Below, one piece after another: positions 52,845-61,168 of a stretch of DNA of 64,000 nucleotides (positions are counted from its first letter, which is position 1; every line of letters starts with the position of its first letter). Both the position numbers and the translations under genes were made by a program. The notes under the pieces were generated by a model. The model searched no databases. It saw only the letters and a list, made by a program, of their open reading frames with translations, and was not told the DNA's origin. Location of the stretch: the NCBI GenBank assembly GCA_045544195.1, contig JAZPYO010000033.1, positions 21,650 through 85,649 on the forward strand, given 5' to 3'. This DNA comes from Eubacteriales bacterium (GTDB taxonomy: Bacteria; Bacillota; Clostridia; Oscillospirales; CAG-272).

Positions 52845-52920
52845 GCTGCTATGGCTCAGCTGGCAGAGCACATCCTTGGTAAGGATGAGGTCGACAGTTC
52901 GACTCTGTCTAGCAGCTCCA
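52845..52920 (+). tRNA. tRNA-Thr (anticodon GGU)
   Basis: Manual cloverleaf. Acceptor GCTGCTA/TAGCAGC, D arm GCTC-AGCTGGCA-GAGC, anticodon arm CATCC-TTGGTAA-GGATG, variable loop AGGTC, T arm GACAG-TTCGACT-CTGTC, discriminator T, encoded CCA. 76 nt. Confidence 0.9.
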
Positions 52921-55373: not shown

Positions 55374-55418
55374 GGAAAAATCTGCTGCAAGCACGCTTTT
55401 CGCACTTGCAGCAGATCA
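55374..55418 (-). terminator. rho-independent terminator after acyl-CoA synthetase fusion gene
   Basis: On the minus strand: ATCTGCTGCAAGTGCG AAAA GCGTGCTTGCAGCAGAT followed by TTTTTCC. Confidence 0.85.
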
Positions 55419-55425
55419 TTTATTT

Positions 55426-57714
55426 TTATCTTAACTCGTTTCTCTTTATCTTACCGCTGATGGTTTTGGGTAATTCGGTCATAAACTGTACGACTCTGGG
55501 GTATTTATACGGAGCTGTATGCTCTTTTACGTAGTTCTGAATTTCCTTCTTCAATTCGTCAGTTCCCTCTTTGCCCTTTACCAGAACGATAGACGCCTTG
55601 ATCGCCTGACCTCTGATCGGATCGGGTACTGCTGTGACCGCGCACTCCAAAACGTAGGGTAATTCCATAATTACGCTTTCGATCTCAAACGGACCTATGC
55701 GGTAGCCTGATGATTTGATAACATCGTCAGTTCTTCCGACATACCAGAAATATCCGTCCTCATCACGCCATGCAGTATCACCCGTATGATACAGTCCGTC
55801 GTGCCATACCTCTTTCGTTTTTTCTTCATTTCGGTAATAGCCCTTGAAAAGTCCGCACGGTGTGCTCTTGTCAACGTGGATAACGATCTCGCCCGTTTCG
55901 CCGACGGGAACGCTGTTGCCGTCCTCGTCAACAAGGTCAACATCATATTGAGGACTCGGTCTGCCCATTGCTCCCGGCTTCGGAGTCGTGCCTACGAGAT
56001 TGCATATAGAAAGCGTTGTTTCCGTCTGTCCGAAGCCTTCCATTATGGTAAGGCCCGTTGCCTTACGCCACTGGTCGAACACCTCAGGGTTCAAGGCTTC
56101 GCCTGCCGTTGTTGAATACTCGATTCCCGACAGATCGAACTTAGAAAGATCCTCCTTTATGAAGAAGCGGTACATCGTGGGGGGAGCGCAGAACGTAGTT
56201 ATATTGTACTTTGCGAACATCGGAAGTATTTCGTTAGCATCAAATCTGTCAAAATCATATGTGAATACTGCCGCCTCGCAAAGCCACTGGCCGTACAGCT
56301 TGCCCCATACTGCCTTGCCCCAGCCCGTATCGGATATTGTAAAGTGAAGTCCCTCGGGATTTACGTTATGCCAATATCTTGCCGTGATATAGTGGCCGAT
56401 AGCATATCTGTAATCGTGCATTGCGATCTTCGGATAGCCCGTAGTACCTGATGTAAAGTACATCAGCATCGGGTCTGTTCCGCACGGAGAATCGGGGCGT
56501 CTGTCGTAAACGTCCGACATTTCCGCAAATTCCGTATTGAAATCGTGCCAGCCGTCTTTTTTTTCACCGACTATGATCTTTACCATCGGCTTGCCGTACG
56601 TTTCTGATGCCTGCTGCGCCTGATTTGACACATCGCCGTCAGATGTGCAGACGATAGCGCTTACGCCTGCCGCCTCATAGCGATACTCAAAATCATGCTT
56701 CATAAGCTGATTTGTAGCAGGGATCGCTATTGCGCCTATCTTATGAAGCGCAACGATGGAGAACCAGAACTGATAGTGACGCTTTAAAACGAGCATTACT
56801 CTGTCGCCCTTTTTAATTCCCAATGACTCAAAATAATTTGCCGTCATAGCGGAATACTTTTTCATATCGGCAAATGTAAAGCGTCTTTCCGTTTTATCGT
56901 TTGAGATGTGAAGCATTGCCAGCTTATCGGGACATTTTTCAGCCAATGCATCAACCGTGTCAAATCCGAAATTGTACTTATCTTCGTTTTTGAATGATAT
57001 TTTTTTCAATACGCCGTTTTCGTCACATTCCGTGTCGATGAAGTTGGCGGCGATGCTTGTTGCGTGAGCATCACGTCTTCCCTTTCTTTGAGAAACGATC
57101 TGATCGAATTTATCCTTTTCTTCATCGCCGTCCGTCTTTTTCAGAACGATAGCGTAAAACTTCGTTCCCTCAGGGTCGAGGGCAATCATTCCGTGAGGCG
57201 CAGATGAATTATAGTAAATGGAGTCGCCGGGGCCGAGTACTTCGGTATGATTTCCGATCTGTACCTTCATTCTGCCCGAAATAACGACGTCGAACTCCTG
57301 ACCCTCGTGTGTTGAAAGCTTTATGGGACTGTCAACATCAGCGGCATTATACGGCATTTCGACCATAAACGGCTCTGCCGTTTTTTGCTTGAAAAGCGGC
57401 GCCATATTAAAATACTTGAAGCCCGCTCTGCGTGTTATGGGCAAGCCCTCACCGCTTCTTGTAAGGTTATAGTTTGAAAGCGTGGGGCTTTCACCCTTTA
57501 TAAGATCGGTCGGATCTACGTTAAGATTGTTTGCACACTTGTAAATAAAAGTAAAGCTGAAATCCATTTCACCGGATTCATACTTGAGATAATTCTCCGT
57601 TGTAACGCCCGTTTTCTGTGCCATTTCCTCCGGAGAAATACCCATTATTTCACGCAAGGTCCTGATTCTTTGAGCAACTTCGCACAATTGATGTTTCAAA
57701 TCTGTTTTTTCCAT
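55426..57714 (-). CDS. three-domain fusion: XRE-family HTH + cupin + AMP-forming medium-chain-type acyl-CoA synthetase
   Basis: 762 aa from the ATG at 57714. HTH region at about aa 10-65 (RIRTLREIMGISPEEMAQKTGVTTENYLKYESG). Cupin at about aa 120-230 (HEGQEFDVVISG...GDSIYYNSSAPHGM). ANL-superfamily core with YFTSGTTGYPK, ISDTGWGKAVWG, GFGQTET, YHTGD, GRTDDVIKSSGYRIGPFEIES and a terminal SGKIKR. The tracked ORF's 39-aa extension runs into the leader terminator. Confidence 0.85.
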   Translation of the reverse strand: MEKTDLKHQLCEVAQRIRTLREIMGISPEEMAQKTGVTTENYLKYESGEMDFSFTFIYKCANNLNVDPTDLIKGESPTLSNYNLTRSGEGLPITRRAGFKYFNMAPLFKQKTAEPFMVEMPYNAADVDSPIKLSTHEGQEFDVVISGRMKVQIGNHTEVLGPGDSIYYNSSAPHGMIALDPEGTKFYAIVLKKTDGDEEKDKFDQIVSQRKGRRDAHATSIAANFIDTECDENGVLKKISFKNEDKYNFGFDTVDALAEKCPDKLAMLHISNDKTERRFTFADMKKYSAMTANYFESLGIKKGDRVMLVLKRHYQFWFSIVALHKIGAIAIPATNQLMKHDFEYRYEAAGVSAIVCTSDGDVSNQAQQASETYGKPMVKIIVGEKKDGWHDFNTEFAEMSDVYDRRPDSPCGTDPMLMYFTSGTTGYPKIAMHDYRYAIGHYITARYWHNVNPEGLHFTISDTGWGKAVWGKLYGQWLCEAAVFTYDFDRFDANEILPMFAKYNITTFCAPPTMYRFFIKEDLSKFDLSGIEYSTTAGEALNPEVFDQWRKATGLTIMEGFGQTETTLSICNLVGTTPKPGAMGRPSPQYDVDLVDEDGNSVPVGETGEIVIHVDKSTPCGLFKGYYRNEEKTKEVWHDGLYHTGDTAWRDEDGYFWYVGRTDDVIKSSGYRIGPFEIESVIMELPYVLECAVTAVPDPIRGQAIKASIVLVKGKEGTDELKKEIQNYVKEHTAPYKYPRVVQFMTELPKTISGKIKRNELR

Positions 57715-57777
57715 TGTTTTTAAACCTTTCTTAAAATAATTCGGTTTGTTTTTGTTCAAAGCGGCTTGAGTGAAAAT

Positions 57778-58023
57778 AAAAAACGCCCCAATGTCCACTG
57801 ACATTGAGACGGATAAATACCGCGGTACCACTCAATTTGCATAATATATGCCACTTCGGACTCATCACAAAGCCCTTCGCCTTAACGCGGCTAATCGTGA
57901 GAAGCTACTGCAGTTCACCTCTCCCACTCAGAAATGATATGGCTTTTTGGAAATTGACTCTATCGGCTCGCACCAAACGCCGACTCTCTGTAAAAATCTT
58001 TCTCCGCCGTTTTCTTCACTGTG
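57778..58023 (-). promoter_or_regulatory. T-box riboswitch leader (tRNA-sensing transcription antiterminator)
   Basis: On the minus strand. Stem I base with K-turn: CAC-AGTGA-AGAAA (58023-58011) pairs with TTTCT-GA-GTG (57934-57925). AG bulge AGAGAG (57989-57984) and distal loop GGTGCGA (57974-57968). F-box-like CGCGTTA. Stem III GCATATATTATGC (57851-57839). T-box sequence AAATTGAGTGGTACCGCGG (57838-57820), giving an antiterminator ATTGAG/CTCAAT with the 7-nt bulge UGGUACC. A competing 12-bp terminator (57811-57800 / 57795-57784) is followed by U6 (57783-57778). Confidence 0.85.
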
Positions 58024-58035
58024 TTTGATGTTGCT

Positions 58036-58064
58036 ATCTTACACCAATTTTTTGCATTTGTCAA
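58036..58064 (-). promoter_or_regulatory. sigma-A promoter driving the T-box leader
   Basis: On the minus strand: TTGACA (58064-58059), 17 nt, then TAAGAT (58041-58036). Confidence 0.65.
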
Positions 58065-58192: not shown

Positions 58193-61168
58193 TTAATTGA
58201 TCACCGCTTCGCTGATAGTTACGATTTCCTCAAGTGAAATCTCCCCGTCAAGATCAAGGTCACAGGCATCAAAATATATATCCTTTGATGAGTCATCCTC
58301 TCTGAACTTTTTCGCTCTTATGCAGTCCTTTGCGTTAACTGTGCCGTCGCCGTTTATATCGTAGCTGACTATGATATAAGCAGTATCGCATAACAGCGAA
58401 TCTACCGTAAGGTTTATTCTGCTTCCTGTTGCAAGCTCTCCGTCGATCGTGCATCCCTTGTTAAGCACCGACAAAAGCATATCGCTTGTATATCCGCACG
58501 GAACTCTTACGTATGTTACGTTATCGCCGCGCTGAACCGTTACATCACCGTCAGTTGAAGATATCCACACCTCATCTGAGCTTATAAGCGTAAGATCTGC
58601 GCACAGAATGCTTCCGCTCGTTGTTTTCGCATATACTTTTACGTTATTCTTGCCTTCGTTAAGGTCTTCGCTTGCAAGGTCGAGCTTGTACGTATTGATA
58701 CCGTTACAGCCCGGCATATACGCAAGTACACGCTCGGGAATACTGCTGTCCTTTTCGGATGTTATATCAAACAAAGAGCCGCCGTTTACGCTGCACTGAA
58801 ATCCGCTTACGCTTCTGCTGGATGCAAACCAGCCGCTGATATGAGCATTCTCATTTTCGCCTGCTGTCACCAAGCACTTAACAGCACCGTTTCTGTGAGT
58901 TGTTGCACCGGAATCGTATACACCCGTTGTATAATTCACGCTGTCAACAGATGTGTCCACCTTGCCCTTGAATTTTTTTATCTGCTCCTTAAGTATATCA
59001 AGATAGAATGTTCCGTACGTAACGCACGGCTCGATATCCTTACTTACCTCAAGTGAATTCTGCTCGCCCGTTGTCCATTCGTTAAACGAAACGACGAGCG
59101 ATATTTTAACGCCTATATCGTTGGCTCTTTGCCACTGGGTACGGAACGTCTGACCGTTATTTCTGCCGCCCGGTGCAATATATCCGCTGCTGCCGGGTGA
59201 GCTCTGTCCTCTGTACGCTGCAACGACAGTCATACATTCGGGAATATTGTTATATACGGTGTACGTCTGCTTTACACGCTCCTCCCAGCTCCAATGCAGG
59301 TAAGAAAGGTATGTTTTCGTGTTATAAAGTCCGGACTGCTGACCTATAAATCCCGTTACCCAGCGTTCTGTAAAGCGGCTGTCGGTATACGGTGCGGTAT
59401 TGTTTTTTATAAACGACGGCGTTGCCGCATAGCAAAGCAAAAGCGGCTTTCCCTCGTAATAGAAATACATATCGTTATAGGCGCTGTTTGCTATAAACTC
59501 ATTGTATATCTGATTATTTTTGCGTGCCATCTGACCGTCGGTAAACGTACCTGTACCAACGTGTCCCGGGCCTGTCATAATGCATATCTTAGGAGCATTT
59601 TCAACCGTTGCAAAGACCTCAAATATCGCATATGTTGCATTTTCGATCATCGCAAAGTCCTCACGGTACATGGTTTTCGGATCATATCCGACGTTGTTTG
59701 ACCAGTCTACCACGATAAAATCCACTCCCGCATCTGCAAGCCAGATAGCGTGCTGTCTTATTGCGTTTCTGTTGTCTGATGCATAAGGGCCTATGAGAGG
59801 CATATCCCAGGTATGTCCATCGCCCCACGATGAATTAGGTCTTAACCACGTCGTATACGCAACGCCGACGAGTCTTTCATCCTGCGGGCACTGCTTATAC
59901 TTGCCAACTCCCGTCTGATCGCATGAAACGTCGCTGTAATTGAACACTACCTGATCGTATAAAGCAAATCTTTCCTTGTAAAGCTGAAGCGATGCGGATG
60001 CATCGCTTTGAGGCGAATGCATTATCATAATACCGCTTGCATCCTTTACCGTCTTATAGCCTATGAACGATGCAAATTCATCAGCGCAGATAAAATACGT
60101 ATCCTTGTACATTATCGGCATATTTGCATCTACTTCATTACCGAGAAGGTTTACCTTATCCTTGCCGAAGAAATATTCAATAACGTTTGAGCCGTATGTG
60201 AATTTCAGTCCTTTGGCATCCTCTGAATATTCCATTCCGACCATCTGCGCAAGAACGGATGCGGAAATATAATATCCGCCCGTGTATTCAAAGCACGGTG
60301 CGTTCTGCTGCTTGTTCAGATCGTATTTGACAAGATCTGCAAAGCAGTATTTTTTATTCTTTGCTATTGCGATTATCGGCTTGTTTTCGTAAAATGACGA
60401 TGCATGCTGAACATCAAGCGTCATATTTGAGATATATCCTTCAACATAGTGGGACATTATTCTGCAATAGCCGCCGTCTCTTATGCTTTCTCTGTGCTTA
60501 TAGCTTGAGATGTAATCTCCGTTTTCATCGTATGCATTTATCGAAGCACCGGTTATTGTAAGTCTGCCTATATACGTTTTTTCAAGTGACGATGATGATA
60601 TGTAATATTCAATATCGCCGTTTCCGCCCTTATCCTTAACTGTCAGAGTAGCACCGTTTTTAAACGAGGCGGGCAATGAATCAAACTTAATATTCGTATT
60701 CACGCCGTCACAGTAAAATGTTATCCCGTCATCATAGCAAAGCGCCCATATGCCCGTGTCGATATAAAGATGAAGAGTACCGTTGCATCTTACACCGACC
60801 ATTACCGCCTGATTTCCCGCGCTTGAATCAATATCGCCGTGACGTAAAAAGGAGCTGAAGGTATAGCCGTTCGTCTTCGTATGGTAATTTATACCAACCG
60901 AATCCCAGCCGCTGTTGGCAACGTATAGACCGTATGTACTTTTCTGAACATTTTCACCGAGCTGAAAGGAGATCATACTGTCATTTTTCAGCCTTTCAAG
61001 GTCGGCTGAAACAAAATCATAGCTGAACGTTTCCGTAACGTAAGCATCATCCTTTATCGTTCCCTGCGCGAACGACTGTGTTACAACGTCACCCGATACG
61101 CATATTGCTACTGCAAGCGTCAAGATAGACAGCACTGTGATAAGGCTTACCGCTTTTACCAATTTCAT
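58193..61168 (-). CDS. secreted multidomain dockerin-containing protein with putative TIM-barrel glycoside-hydrolase-like core
   Basis: 991 aa. Signal peptide MKLVKAVSLITVLSILTLAVAI. Copper-amine-oxidase-N-like 'stalk' segment (aa ~270-385). Central region with PLIGPYASDNRNAIRQHAIWLADAGVDFIVVDWSN, resembling GH99/GH71/WbsX-like TIM barrels. C-terminal type I dockerin with two Ca-binding loops, DINGDGTVNAKD and DLDLDGEISLEE. Confidence 0.7.
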   Translation of the reverse strand: MKLVKAVSLITVLSILTLAVAICVSGDVVTQSFAQGTIKDDAYVTETFSYDFVSADLERLKNDSMISFQLGENVQKSTYGLYVANSGWDSVGINYHTKTNGYTFSSFLRHGDIDSSAGNQAVMVGVRCNGTLHLYIDTGIWALCYDDGITFYCDGVNTNIKFDSLPASFKNGATLTVKDKGGNGDIEYYISSSSLEKTYIGRLTITGASINAYDENGDYISSYKHRESIRDGGYCRIMSHYVEGYISNMTLDVQHASSFYENKPIIAIAKNKKYCFADLVKYDLNKQQNAPCFEYTGGYYISASVLAQMVGMEYSEDAKGLKFTYGSNVIEYFFGKDKVNLLGNEVDANMPIMYKDTYFICADEFASFIGYKTVKDASGIMIMHSPQSDASASLQLYKERFALYDQVVFNYSDVSCDQTGVGKYKQCPQDERLVGVAYTTWLRPNSSWGDGHTWDMPLIGPYASDNRNAIRQHAIWLADAGVDFIVVDWSNNVGYDPKTMYREDFAMIENATYAIFEVFATVENAPKICIMTGPGHVGTGTFTDGQMARKNNQIYNEFIANSAYNDMYFYYEGKPLLLCYAATPSFIKNNTAPYTDSRFTERWVTGFIGQQSGLYNTKTYLSYLHWSWEERVKQTYTVYNNIPECMTVVAAYRGQSSPGSSGYIAPGGRNNGQTFRTQWQRANDIGVKISLVVSFNEWTTGEQNSLEVSKDIEPCVTYGTFYLDILKEQIKKFKGKVDTSVDSVNYTTGVYDSGATTHRNGAVKCLVTAGENENAHISGWFASSRSVSGFQCSVNGGSLFDITSEKDSSIPERVLAYMPGCNGINTYKLDLASEDLNEGKNNVKVYAKTTSGSILCADLTLISSDEVWISSTDGDVTVQRGDNVTYVRVPCGYTSDMLLSVLNKGCTIDGELATGSRINLTVDSLLCDTAYIIVSYDINGDGTVNAKDCIRAKKFREDDSSKDIYFDACDLDLDGEISLEEIVTISEAVIN

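What the first reader, a model, noticed from the sequence alone, without database searches (positions are those of the whole stretch)
57715..58064. Canonical T-box riboswitch controlling an acyl-CoA synthetase fusion: a possible tRNA-sensed branched-chain fatty acid salvage route
All hallmark T-box elements are readable on the minus strand downstream of a TTGACA-17-TAAGAT promoter. They are a K-turn at the stem I base, the AG bulge (AGAGAG) with distal loop (GGTGCGA), an F-box-like CGCGTTA, stem III, the T-box sequence AAATTGAGTGGTACCGCGG forming an antiterminator with the 7-nt UGGUACC bulge, and a competing 12-bp terminator with a U6 tract that ends about 65 nt before the ATG. T-boxes are established regulators of aminoacyl-tRNA synthetases and of amino-acid biosynthesis and transport genes. 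An acyl-CoA synthetase target is not a recognised class to my knowledge. By the usual rule (codon, then one purine, immediately 5' of the lower stem I helix), the specifier would be AUC (Ile; 57938-57936, followed by A and then TTTCT). GCC (57943-57941, Ala) is a weaker alternative. The UGGU bulge pairs with an ACCA 3' end (discriminator A), which is compatible with either. Two pieces of established knowledge matter here. Rumen and gut anaerobes, including ruminococci, can make isoleucine, valine and leucine by reductive carboxylation of 2-methylbutyrate, isobutyrate and isovalerate after activation to the CoA thioester. Also, a MacS-type archaeal ligase prefers 2-methylbutyrate. My inference is that uncharged tRNA (probably tRNA-Ile) induces a ligase that activates the cognate branched-chain fatty acid for amino-acid synthesis.
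Basis: partly seen in the sequence, partly recalled or inferred. Interest (0 to 1): 0.85.

Follow-up and report, generated by a model that had tools for sequence, protein, structure and literature searches.

The report
Isoleucine T-box controlling branched-acid CoA ligase
A textbook tRNA-sensing T-box riboswitch carrying an isoleucine codon switches on a fused acyl-CoA ligase, and related gut and rumen bacteria carry valine-coded versions and operons with a ketoacid:ferredoxin oxidoreductase and a branched-chain aminotransferase, so these are probably the genes for making branched-chain amino acids from fermentation acids.

Summary
Rfam calls a full-length T-box at 57802-58028 (-) with 99.1 bits (threshold 93), between a TTGACA-17-TAAGAT promoter and a 12-bp terminator, 64 nt before the ATG of a 762-aa HTH-cupin-acyl-CoA-ligase fusion.

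The specifier is AUC (Ile). It is invariant in 69 aligned orthologous leaders, and the helices covary.

- The T-box precedes 75 of 79 orthologues in genomes and 56 of 69 more distant fusions in metagenomes.
- A paralogous clade carries Val specifiers (GUA/GUC). The specifier tracks one residue next to the acyl-pocket tryptophan: Gly466 with Ile, Ala with Val.
- In at least 16 loci, with either specifier, the ligase is followed by VorB/TPP subunits of 2-oxoisovalerate:ferredoxin oxidoreductase. In 4 loci it is followed by IlvE.
- The ligase domain is 51% identical to the 2-methylbutyrate-preferring M. acetivorans Macs, and the known key residues are kept.
- The same genomes have Phe T-boxes before PaaK-like ligases and Leu T-boxes before another ligase fusion.

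Still untested: substrate, tRNA dependence, the role of the HTH-cupin module, and whether the window's own genome has VOR. The RNA is a new member of a known family. The target class appears unreported in the literature I could search.

The parts
58036..58064 (-). Sigma-70-type promoter: TTGACA (58064-58059), 17-nt spacer, TAAGAT (58041-58036)
   Evidence: 10 of 12 matches. Orthologues have TTGACA-17-TATAAT at the same place.
57802..58028 (-). T-box leader (Rfam RF00230), full-length match
   Evidence: 99.1 bits against a gathering score of 93, E = 1.3e-20. Covariation on 69 leaders.
57926..58022 (-). Stem I: K-turn (GTGAAG 58019-58014 with CTGAG 57931-57927), specifier loop, AG bulge AGAGAG 57989-57984, distal loop GGTGCGA 57974-57968
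   Evidence: Helices 1-5 pair in 72-100% of cells with many double changes. AGAGA and GGTG..A are invariant or nearly so.
57936..57938 (-). Specifier codon AUC (Ile), followed by A57935 and the lower helix TTTC
   Evidence: The Rfam alignment places AUC+A at the model's codon+purine positions. A100, T101 and C102 are invariant in all 69 leaders while the flanks vary.
57899..57925 (-). Stem II with S-turn (GAA ... AGTA)
   Evidence: Helix 6: 6 of 7 pairs with double changes.
57883..57889 (-). F-box CGCGTTA (stem IIA/B region)
   Evidence: alignment to the consensus CGUUA. C151, G152 and T153 invariant.
57839..57851 (-). Stem III hairpin GCATA-TAT-TATGC
   Evidence: Helix 9: 6 of 6 pairs with double changes, 94.8% of cells paired.
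57803..57838 (-). T-box sequence and antiterminator. The bulge TGGTACC (57830-57824) includes UGGU, which would pair with the tRNA 3' end ACCA (discriminator A).
   Evidence: The sequence is invariant in 69 leaders. The canonical antiterminator is -5.8 kcal/mol.
57778..57811 (-). Intrinsic terminator that competes with the antiterminator: 12-bp stem 57811-57784 plus T6 57783-57778
   Evidence: -16.6 kcal/mol. 95.2% of cells paired, 6 of 12 pairs with double changes.
55426..57714 (-). Regulated gene, 762 aa: HTH_XRE - Cupin_2 - AMP-binding - AMP-binding_C fusion. RBS AAAGG at 57729-57725.
   Evidence: Pfam. Start fixed by the orthologue alignment. The 801-aa ORF and the 792-aa database protein run into the leader and are artefacts.
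57487..57672 (-). HTH_19/HTH_3 domain (residues 15-76)
   Evidence: E = 1e-10 and 6e-9. Five-helix bundle in the model.
57148..57318 (-). Cupin_2 domain (residues 133-189). H136, E140 and H174 are invariant.
   Evidence: Foldseek best hits are HppE and 1y9q.
55450..56943 (-). Acyl-CoA ligase domains (AMP-binding 258-627, AMP-binding_C 677-755)
   Evidence: 51% identity to M. acetivorans Macs, 3etc_A, E = 3e-195.
56305..56319 (-). Pocket motif G466-K-A-V-W470. W470 corresponds to Macs Trp259. G466 is the one position that separates Ile-type (Gly) from Val-type (Ala) ligases.
55379..55417 (-). Terminator of the ligase gene (17-bp stem). The transcription unit is monocistronic.

Best explanation
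This is a canonical transcriptional T-box riboswitch specific for tRNA-Ile.

Mechanism. Transcription starts about 7 nt after the -10 box. By default the leader folds into the 12-bp terminator and transcription stops before the gene. When isoleucine is scarce, uncharged tRNA-Ile(GAU) binds in three places. Its anticodon pairs with the AUC specifier in stem I. Its elbow stacks on the AG-bulge/distal-loop platform. Its free ACCA 3' end pairs with the UGGU of the T-box bulge. This stabilises the weak antiterminator, and RNA polymerase reads into the gene.

Product. The gene encodes a 762-aa acyl-CoA ligase of the Macs/MbcS type fused to an N-terminal HTH-cupin module. It most likely converts exogenous 2-methylbutyrate into 2-methylbutyryl-CoA. 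A 2-oxoisovalerate-type ferredoxin oxidoreductase (VOR) then reductively carboxylates this to 2-oxo-3-methylvalerate, and IlvE transaminates that to isoleucine.

What is shown and what is inferred. Shown by computation: the T-box, its Ile specifier and its conservation; the Val-specifier paralogues; and the VorB/IlvE operon context in relatives. Inferred: tRNA dependence, the substrate, the flow into isoleucine in this organism, and any role of the HTH-cupin module.
For: T-box
- Rfam 99.1 bits against a threshold of 93.
- Promoter and terminator found.
- Terminator -16.6 against antiterminator -5.8 kcal/mol.
- Covariation in stems I, II, III and the terminator, with 0 of 500 shuffles reaching the observed values.

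Specifier
- AUC plus a purine by the Rfam alignment.
- AUC is invariant in 69 leaders. The -1 frame and the GCC position vary.

Conservation of the pairing
- The T-box core lies 80-210 nt upstream in 75 of 80 species-representative loci. Four truly lack it and one has no upstream DNA.
- It is present in 56 of 69 more distant metagenome loci.

Specifier covariation
- 25 leaders of a sister clade read GUA or GUC plus G (Val). This was confirmed by the Rfam alignment of L083.
- The Val-type ligases form one neighbour-joining clade.
- L119 and L114 carry the two paralogues in tandem.
- The only column separating the two types is G466 (Ile) against Ala (Val), four residues before the pocket Trp. 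The counts are 99:1 and 21:1.
- Macs, which prefers 2-methylbutyrate, has the Gly form.

Pathway context
- The ligase is followed on the same strand by IlvE (PRK13357, 488 bits, cutoff 307), VorB (PRK07119, 545 bits, cutoff 399) and a TPP subunit.
- This holds for loci with AUC leaders (L097, L107, L111, L125, L127) and with GUA leaders (L081, L084, L095, L103, L104, L110, L118, L121).

Enzyme
- The best solved relative is 3etc_A, Macs of M. acetivorans, at 51% identity. Its preferred substrate is 2-methylbutyrate (PMC10455477).
- Trp259, the Gly that replaces the Acs tryptophan, Tyr460, Arg490, Lys519, Tyr525 and Tyr527 are conserved.
- The best NCBIfam model is MbcS, which activates 2-methylbutyrate and isobutyrate (PMC10026030).

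Parallels in the same genomes
- Phe T-boxes (UUC) lie before PaaK-family ligases.
- Leu T-boxes (CUC) lie before a LeuA-like gene plus another ligase fusion.

Pathway background
- 2-methylbutyrate is converted to Ile by reductive carboxylation in rumen organisms (PMC2812497, PMC10658910).
Against: - No experiment supports tRNA binding or the substrate.
- In the window the gene is monocistronic, with its own terminator at 55417-55379. No VOR, ilvE, ilv gene or tRNA-Ile lies within the 64 kb. Whether this genome can complete the pathway is therefore unknown.
- In the 80 closest loci the neighbourhood is not conserved and has no VOR. The VOR/IlvE operons occur in relatives whose ligase domain is 68-71% identical to the window's.
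- The MbcS model scores 437 bits, below its equivalog cutoff of 850.
- Two exceptions to the specifier/residue rule exist: L102 and L096.
- 4 of 79 and 13 of 69 loci have no T-box.
- The base after the codon is a pyrimidine in about a quarter of the leaders.
- The conserved HTH-cupin module has no role in this explanation.
Confidence: 0.72

Rival explanations
1. Same Ile T-box and same ligase chemistry, but the 2-methylbutyryl-CoA mainly primes anteiso branched-chain fatty acid synthesis, as with S. aureus MbcS. Ile starvation would then trigger salvage of the lipid primer that is normally derived from Ile.
For: The best NCBIfam model is MbcS. MbcS supplies FabH primers from 2-methylbutyrate and isobutyrate (PMC10026030). 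From established knowledge, rumen ruminococci use branched acids for both lipids and amino acids. The window gene has no VOR neighbour.
Against: Known T-box regulons serve the supply of the cognate aminoacyl-tRNA. In relatives the operon partners are VorB and IlvE, not fab genes. The parallel Phe T-box before a PaaK-like ligase fits amino-acid synthesis, not lipids. The two fates are not mutually exclusive.
Confidence: 0.12
2. The ligase activates propionate. Propionyl-CoA is reductively carboxylated to 2-oxobutyrate, which feeds the ordinary IlvBCDE route to isoleucine.
For: This route is also Ile-specific and known in anaerobes (established knowledge). Macs adenylates C3-C8 acids (PMC10455477). 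A VOR-type enzyme would also be needed.
Against: Macs completes the thioester reaction with 2-methylbutyrate, not with most other acids. A propionate model does not explain the Val-specifier paralogue, whereas isobutyrate and 2-methylbutyrate differ by exactly the kind of size change that Gly466/Ala suggests. IlvE directly downstream fits a one-step finish.
Confidence: 0.07
3. The protein is mainly a transcription factor or sensor. The HTH binds DNA, and the cupin and ligase domains sense an acid. The T-box would then control a regulator rather than a metabolic enzyme.
For: The HTH and cupin domains are as conserved as the catalytic core. A distant fused relative, P0153, has lost the P-loop and the A10 lysine but keeps the HTH-cupin. 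A conserved 12-mer lies at the transcription start in 44 of 68 orthologues. The ligase FadD1 of P. aeruginosa is reported to regulate transcription.
Against: All catalytic motifs are intact in the window protein and its orthologues. The HTH-cupin architecture also matches non-DNA-binding enzymes such as HppE. The 12-mer is absent from the window's own leader. No DNA-binding evidence exists.
Confidence: 0.06
4. The specifier is read one base later as UCN (Ser), so the element senses tRNA-Ser.
For: In all 69 leaders the +1 frame reads UCA, UCC, UCG or UCU, which are all Ser codons.
Against: That reading puts the third codon base at the last unpaired position, with no following purine. This goes against the Rfam alignment and the usual rule (PMC7778990). 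It would not explain why the preceding A is invariant, and it would need four different isoacceptors. In the sister clade the same position reads GUA/GUC, which is Val in the canonical frame.
Confidence: 0.02

Closest known systems
Ile-specific T-box leaders of ileS and ilv-leu operons in Firmicutes (Rfam RF00230)
   Same: Same architecture and presumed mechanism: K-turn, specifier loop with AUC plus a purine, AG bulge and distal loop, stem II with S-turn, F-box, stem III, a UGGN bulge in the antiterminator, and a competing terminator.
   Different: The regulated gene is an acyl-CoA ligase fusion, not an aminoacyl-tRNA synthetase, a classical biosynthetic operon or a transporter. No such target appears in the surveys I could read.
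Macs of Methanosarcina acetivorans (PDB 3etc), a 2-methylbutyrate-preferring medium-chain acyl-CoA synthetase
   Same: 51% identity over 548 residues. Trp259, the Gly at the Acs-Trp position and the CoA-site residues are conserved. It has the same GWGK.VW pocket motif as the Ile-type ligases.
   Different: Macs is archaeal, lacks the HTH-cupin extension and has no T-box. Lys461 is Arg here. The physiological role of Macs is not established.
MbcS of Staphylococcus aureus (methylbutyryl-CoA synthetase)
   Same: It is the best-scoring NCBIfam model. It activates 2-methylbutyrate and isobutyrate, the two substrates implied by the Ile and Val specifiers.
   Different: The score of 437 bits is well below the equivalog cutoff of 850. 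MbcS feeds lipid synthesis, is unfused, and no riboswitch is mentioned for it.
Reductive carboxylation of branched-chain and aromatic acids to amino acids in rumen anaerobes (2-methylbutyrate to Ile, isobutyrate to Val, isovalerate to Leu, phenylacetate to Phe)
   Same: The set of T-box specifiers found before CoA ligases in these genomes (Ile, Val, Leu, Phe) matches the classical acid/amino-acid pairs. VorB and IlvE follow the ligase in operons (PMC2812497, PMC10658910).
   Different: The classical work is physiological. Gene assignment and tRNA-level regulation are what this locus would add. The Leu case rests on an uncharacterised ligase fusion.
BirA (biotin protein ligase and repressor) and other trigger enzymes
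   Same: An adenylate-forming enzyme fused to an N-terminal helix-turn-helix domain.
   Different: There is no sequence relationship. DNA binding here is untested, and the module equally resembles the HTH-like plus cupin enzymes HppE and HEPD.

Membership tests
T-box leader (RF00230) | Covariance-model score at or above Rfam's gathering threshold | tested here: met
   99.1 bits against 93, full model 1-219.
T-box leader (RF00230) | Stem I with a K-turn, a specifier loop (codon plus purine next to the lower helix), an AG bulge and a distal loop | tested here: met
   Helices covary. AGAGA, GGTG..A and ATC are invariant.
T-box leader (RF00230) | Conserved T-box sequence forming an antiterminator with a UGGN bulge | tested here: met
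   AAATTGAGTGGTACCGCGG at 57838-57820, invariant in 69 leaders.
T-box leader (RF00230) | A mutually exclusive, more stable intrinsic terminator with a U tract | tested here: met
   12 bp plus T6. -16.6 against -5.8 kcal/mol. It shares the strand CGTCTCAAT with the antiterminator.
T-box leader (RF00230) | A cognate tRNA in the genome with a matching anticodon (GAU) and discriminator (A73) | not testable with these tools
   The only tRNA in the window is tRNA-Thr(GGU). No tRNA-Ile was found in 60 related loci. The whole genome is not available.
T-box leader (RF00230) | Antitermination dependent on uncharged tRNA | not testable with these tools
   Needs in vitro transcription.
Macs/MbcS-type short branched-chain acyl-CoA synthetase | AMP-binding and AMP-binding_C domains with intact catalytic motifs | tested here: met
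   Pfam E = 2e-60 and 5e-22. TSGTTGYPK, GQTET and the SGK lysine are invariant.
Macs/MbcS-type short branched-chain acyl-CoA synthetase | Macs pocket and CoA-site residues: Trp259, Gly in place of Acs Trp416, Tyr460, Arg490, Lys519, Tyr525, Tyr527 | tested here: met
   All are conserved. Lys461 is Arg.
Macs/MbcS-type short branched-chain acyl-CoA synthetase | NCBIfam MbcS equivalog cutoff | tested here: not met
   436.9 bits against a cutoff of 850. The protein is a relative, not an MbcS orthologue.
Macs/MbcS-type short branched-chain acyl-CoA synthetase | Kinetic preference for 2-methylbutyrate | not testable with these tools
   Needs an enzyme assay. The indirect support is the Ile/Val specifier against Gly/Ala466.
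XRE-cupin transcription regulators | HTH_3/HTH_19 plus Cupin_2 domains above Pfam thresholds | tested here: met
   HTH_19 41.8 bits (cutoff 30.2) and Cupin_2 43.8 bits (cutoff 27.2). Weak sequence match to 1y9q.
XRE-cupin transcription regulators | Sequence-specific DNA binding | not testable with these tools
   The fold search cannot separate regulators (1y9q) from HppE-type enzymes.
Reductive-carboxylation pathway operon (ligase + VOR + BCAT) | 2-oxoisovalerate:ferredoxin oxidoreductase and branched-chain aminotransferase genes linked to the ligase | tested here: inconclusive
   Met in at least 16 (VorB) and 4 (IlvE) related metagenome loci. Not met in the window or in the 80 closest genome loci.

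The most novel reading that the evidence does not exclude
The fusion is a trigger enzyme inside a wider tRNA-sensed regulon. Under this reading, T-boxes for Ile, Val, Leu and Phe each switch on the CoA ligase for the matching fermentation acid. In addition, the Ile/Val ligases use their conserved HTH plus metal-cupin module to bind DNA, for example the TTTGAATATCAC element at the transcription start in many orthologues. Acid availability, sensed at the protein, and amino-acid demand, sensed by the T-box, would then jointly set expression of the reductive-carboxylation genes.
Probability: 0.12. Interest if true: 0.85.

Novelty: new member of a known kind. Interest (0 to 1): 0.68.

Why it matters
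Rumen and gut anaerobes have been known since the 1960s to build isoleucine, valine, leucine and phenylalanine from 2-methylbutyrate, isobutyrate, isovalerate and phenylacetate. The genes for the activation step in gut Firmicutes, and their regulation, are poorly defined.

Here the specifier codon of a riboswitch acts as a built-in label of function. It assigns an abundant, unnamed protein family to isoleucine (AUC) or valine (GUA/GUC) supply. Clusters in this family hold up to 3,113 and 1,160 member sequences, and databases call them only 'AMP-binding protein' or 'cupin domain-containing protein'.

Operon partners (VorB, a TPP subunit, IlvE) give the rest of the pathway. A single Gly/Ala switch beside the pocket tryptophan gives a testable determinant of specificity.

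The finding also extends the recognised T-box regulon from synthetases, classical biosynthetic operons and transporters to organic-acid CoA ligases. That matters for annotating gut metagenomes, for understanding cross-feeding on branched-chain volatile fatty acids (used as ruminant feed additives), and for using T-box specifiers in function prediction.

Tried and rejected
1. GCC (Ala) as the specifier. Rejected: that position varies among orthologues (GCC, ACC, ACT, ATC, AGC and others).
2. The -1 frame (NAU). Rejected: it is not conserved.
3. The +1 frame (UCN, Ser). Always a Ser codon, but rejected on geometry and on the Val-clade comparison.
4. A conserved neighbourhood around the 80 closest orthologues. 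None was found apart from the Leu T-box operon in 11-13 loci. There is no VOR there.
5. VOR or ilv genes in the window. None found; the genes scanned with Pfam are mostly housekeeping.
6. tRNA-Ile in the window or in 60 loci. None found.
7. The source organism by exact protein look-up. No name and no contig on record. The closest locus is L001, a 'Eubacteriales bacterium' faecal MAG, at 88%.
8. An extra hairpin between the F-box and stem III. Mapped from the window row, it paired in only 33% of cells. This is an alignment register problem, and I did not pursue it.
9. The Macs structure papers (PMC2767475, PMC2976453) and two T-box surveys (PMC2271356, PMC2650889). Not held, so the full list of pocket-lining residues and the older target tables could not be checked.
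10. A CodY-box reading of the conserved 12-mer. By eye it matches about 8 of 15 positions, so I did not adopt it.
11. Building my own covariance model. Alignment A2 has 419 columns, above the 400-column limit, so I used pattern search plus Rfam on subsets instead.
Full report
**1. What is in the sequence**

On the minus strand, Rfam's T-box model (RF00230) matches 58028-57802 over its full length. The score is 99.1 bits against a gathering score of 93, with E = 1.3e-20 for the whole window. It is the only cis-regulatory RNA found in the 64 kb.

A sigma-70-type promoter lies just upstream: TTGACA 58064-58059, 17 nt, TAAGAT 58041-58036. A 12-bp terminator with a T6 tract (57811-57778) closes the leader.

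- K-turn, AG bulge AGAGAG and distal loop GGTGCGA;
- S-turn stem II, F-box CGCGTTA and stem III;
- T-box sequence AAATTGAGTGGTACCGCGG with the UGGUACC bulge.

The terminator (-16.6 kcal/mol) shares its 5' arm with the 3' arm of the much weaker canonical antiterminator (-5.8 kcal/mol). The default state is therefore 'off'.

The ATG at 57714 follows 64 nt later and is preceded by AAAGG. The longer ORF from GTG 57831 and the 792-aa database protein that starts at ATG 57804 run through the riboswitch. They are annotation artefacts. Orthologues align from residue 1 or 2 of the 762-aa reading.

**2. The regulated gene**

The 762-aa product has four Pfam domains: HTH_19/HTH_3 (residues 15-76), Cupin_2 (133-189), AMP-binding (258-627) and AMP-binding_C (677-755).

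[quoted passage not shown] The match is E = 3e-195 with 51% identity over 548 residues. The preferred substrate of Macs is 2-methylbutyrate (PMC10455477).

The residues that paper singles out are conserved: Trp259, the Gly that replaces the acetate-pocket Trp of Acs, Gly459/Tyr460, Arg490, Lys519, Tyr525 and Tyr527. Lys461 is Arg here (chain index = native + 23).

The best NCBIfam model is MbcS, the S. aureus enzyme that activates 2-methylbutyrate and isobutyrate (PMC10026030). The score, 437 bits, is far below the equivalog cutoff of 850, so this is a relative and not an orthologue.

A 17-bp terminator follows the stop codon, so the unit is monocistronic. The genes I scanned with Pfam in the rest of the window are mostly housekeeping genes such as RelA, RecJ, UvrC, asd and IspH-S1. 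Several others, such as LigA, Obg, YchF, SpoIIGA and SigE, I identified only by eye from their translations. No VOR, ilv gene or tRNA-Ile is present.

**3. Conservation of the T-box/ligase pair**

The four-domain fusion is abundant in Oscillospiraceae, Acutalibacteraceae and Ruminococcus-type genomes and gut metagenomes. Some 90%-identity clusters hold 1,160 and 3,113 member sequences. Sources annotate it only as 'AMP-binding protein' or 'cupin domain-containing protein'.

I fetched 80 species-representative loci at 65-88% identity. Of these, 75 have the T-box core TGGTACCGCG 80-210 nt upstream of the start. One has no upstream DNA. Four genuinely lack a T-box and have plain promoters.

In an alignment of 69 full leaders, the triplet ATC at the specifier position is invariant while its flanks vary.

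On that alignment the Rfam-derived structure pairs in 85.7% of cells, against 37-52% when the partners are slid. 29 of 50 pairs show compensatory changes, and no shuffle out of 500 reaches the observed values. Stems I, II and III all covary. The antiterminator is invariant. The terminator pairs in 95.2% of cells.

**4. Reading the specifier**

The Rfam alignment places AUC, then A, then the lower helix UUUC, exactly where the consensus has codon, purine and helix. This is also the TBDB rule (PMC7778990).

The +1 frame always reads a Ser codon (UCN). However, it violates the loop geometry and does not explain the invariant A.

UGGU in the bulge implies a discriminator A. This is compatible with tRNA-Ile (established knowledge; not testable here).

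**5. Specifier covariation**

A search of the 50%-identity representative library showed more distant fused relatives. A metagenome scan seeded with them returned 80 further fusion loci. 56 of the 69 with enough upstream DNA carry a T-box.

The specifiers split into two groups:
- about 100 leaders read AUC;
- 25 read GUA (23) or GUC (2) followed by G, that is, valine. The Rfam alignment of L083 puts GUA+G at the codon+purine positions.

The Val-type ligases form one neighbour-joining clade. In contigs L119 and L114 two fusion genes lie in tandem, the second behind a Val T-box. In L119 the first is behind an Ile T-box; in L114 the first gene's leader is cut off by the contig end.

Only one alignment column cleanly separates the two types: Gly466 in the window numbering against Ala. 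It lies in the motif GWGKAVW (Ile type) or GWAKAMW (Val type), four residues before the pocket Trp470, which corresponds to Macs Trp259. The counts are:
- AUC with Gly, 99; AUC with Ala, 1;
- GUA/GUC with Ala, 21; GUA/GUC with Gly, 1.

Macs has the Gly/Val form. A bulkier pocket wall in the Val type is what one would expect for isobutyrate (C4) against 2-methylbutyrate (C5). That last step is inference.

The exception L102 has an Ile-type leader on a ligase 92% identical to a Val-type one. This suggests leader exchange, overlapping substrate range, or both, as in MbcS.

**6. Pathway context**

In the closest 80 loci the gene stands alone. In the metagenome set, however, the ligase is followed on the same strand, with gaps of about 25 nt, by the following genes:
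- a branched-chain aminotransferase (IlvE; PRK13357, 488 bits against cutoff 307; 4 loci);
- a small CbiA/ParA-like P-loop protein (18 loci);
- VorB (PRK07119, '3-methyl-2-oxobutanoate dehydrogenase subunit VorB', 545 bits against cutoff 399; 16 loci);
- a TPP-binding subunit (11 loci).

These operons occur behind AUC leaders (L097, L107, L111, L125, L127) and behind GUA leaders (L081, L084, L095, L103, L104, L110, L118, L121).

Ligase, then 2-oxoacid:ferredoxin oxidoreductase, then transaminase is exactly the reductive-carboxylation route known from rumen physiology (PMC2812497, PMC10658910).

**7. A wider pattern**

The same genomes hold two further T-box/ligase pairs.
- A Leu T-box (CUC+A; 119-131 bits) precedes a LeuA-like gene, a TIM-barrel/FadD-like ligase fusion and an amidohydrolase in 11-13 loci.
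- A Phe T-box (UUC; 98-113 bits) lies directly before a PaaK-family phenylacetate-CoA ligase in L024, L037, L038 and L064.

Ile, Val, Leu and Phe are the amino acids classically made from 2-methylbutyrate, isobutyrate, isovalerate and phenylacetate.

**8. The HTH-cupin module**

This module is as conserved as the catalytic core, and His136, Glu140 and His174 are invariant.

An AlphaFold model (pLDDT 72; both domains confident, linker poor) matches two groups about equally. One is the HTH-like plus cupin iron enzymes HppE, HEPD and MPnS. The other is the V. cholerae HTH_3 regulator 1y9q. E-values are about 1e-9 and TM-scores about 0.3.

It may therefore be a DNA-binding module, a metal or ligand sensor, or a structural or catalytic domain. 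I could not decide between these.

Two hints point towards a regulatory role:
- a distant fused relative (P0153) has a degenerate P-loop and has lost the catalytic lysine, but keeps the module;
- a 12-mer, TTTGAATATCAC, sits at the transcription start in 44 of 68 orthologous leaders, though not in the window.

**9. Literature**

Full-text searches found no paper that links a T-box to an acyl-CoA ligase.

Wels et al. 2008 and Sun et al. 2013, including its supplements, list none. The TBDB paper does not mention CoA. The MbcS papers mention no riboswitch.

Vitreschak 2008 and Gutierrez-Preciado 2009 were not available. Databases such as TBDB could hold unremarked instances.

**10. Verdict**

The RNA is an ordinary member of a well-known family. 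What is new is the target class and the pathway logic it exposes.

Confidence:
- above 0.95 that this is a functional Ile T-box controlling the ligase gene;
- about 0.7 that the ligase supplies 2-methylbutyryl-CoA for isoleucine synthesis.

The main open points are biochemical proof, the completeness of the pathway in this particular genome, and the function of the HTH-cupin module.

Noticed in passing
L081-L096, L103, L104, L110, L113, L118, L121, L128, L130 (leaders about 100-380 nt upstream of the fusion gene): A sister clade of the same HTH-cupin-ligase fusion carries T-boxes with Val specifiers (GUA in 23, GUC in 2, each followed by G). In L119 (cores at 1039 and 3672) an Ile-type and a Val-type gene are tandem neighbours. 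L114 has the same tandem layout, but its first leader is cut off.
   Followed up: yes
L024:8515-8764(+), L037:10173-10416(-), L038:11572-11823(+), L064:12566-12816(+): T-boxes with a UUC (Phe) specifier lie directly upstream of a PaaK-family phenylacetate-CoA ligase (TIGR02155, 536 bits, cutoff 646). This parallels the phenylacetate-to-phenylalanine route of rumen bacteria.
   Followed up: partly
L016, L017 (1420-1668), L018, L026, L029, L038, L040, L045, L050, L051, L057: about 4.3 kb upstream of the Ile T-box: A Leu T-box (CUC+A, 119-131 bits) precedes an operon of three genes: a divergent LeuA-like gene, a fusion of a xylose-isomerase-like TIM barrel with a FadD-like acyl-CoA ligase (about 820-831 aa, only 26% identical to the window ligase), and an Amidohydro_2 protein. 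The function of this operon is unknown. L045 reads CCC at the specifier.
   Followed up: partly
L050:246-485: The Leu T-box of L050 is more similar to Ile-type leaders (63%) than to the other Leu leaders (51-53%). Its specifier context is CTCACTTCTGAG, against ATCACTTCTGAG in the Ile type. This looks like a duplicated Ile leader retargeted by one base change.
   Followed up: partly
Orthologous loci, e.g. L009:5668-5690. Absent from the window (58035-58020).: The 12-mer TTTGAATATCAC (fuller form AAATTTGAATATCACAAA) sits about 7 nt after the -10 box in 44 of 68 leaders, at a fixed distance from the T-box core, while the neighbouring bases vary. It is a possible operator or 5' RNA element.
   Followed up: partly
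window 57148-57318 (cupin domain, residues 133-189): His136, Glu140 and His174 are invariant and spaced like a 2-His-1-Glu cupin metal site. Foldseek's best PDB hits for residues 1-230 are HppE, HEPD and MPnS (HTH-like plus cupin iron enzymes), alongside the regulator 1y9q.
   Followed up: partly
P0153 (library representative, 758 aa): A fused relative at 42% identity has a degenerate P-loop (QSYSYGMAKP), GLAET in place of GQTET, and no A10 lysine. It keeps the HTH-cupin module. It may be a catalytically dead sensor or regulator derivative.
   Followed up: no
window 57802-57831: The database protein P0001 (792 aa) starts at ATG 57804 inside the terminator stem, and the mechanical ORF starts at GTG 57831 inside the T-box sequence. 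Both over-extend the gene into the riboswitch.
   Followed up: yes
L081:4671-5342, L111:4776-5444 and 16 other loci: A protein of about 224 aa with a weak CbiA/ParA P-loop match lies between the ligase (or IlvE) and VorB in the operons. Its role is unknown; it might be a maturation factor or an accessory subunit.
   Followed up: no
L021:8372-9841 and 7 other loci, just downstream of the ligase: A gene for a protein of about 480 aa with an ACT domain and a metallo-beta-lactamase fold recurs next to the ligase in 8 genome loci. A MaoC-like dehydratase recurs in 5 and an SSF-family transporter in 5.
   Followed up: no
L120:893-1134(-) and L037:888-1132(-): Two further T-boxes lie near the fusion gene on the opposite strand. 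The L120 one aligns with CUG+A at the specifier. Their target genes were not examined.
   Followed up: no
L001:10213-10289(-): In the closest related locus (88% identity), Rfam finds a Gut-1 RNA next to tRNA-Thr(GGU). The window has the syntenic tRNA-Thr (52845-52920) but no Gut-1 hit at the gathering threshold.
   Followed up: no
window 43226-50101(-) and 58193-61168(-): There are two very large ORFs. The 2,291-aa ORF was not analysed. The 991-aa ORF just upstream of the T-box promoter has no Pfam match and ends in what looks, by eye, like a dockerin-type sequence.
   Followed up: no
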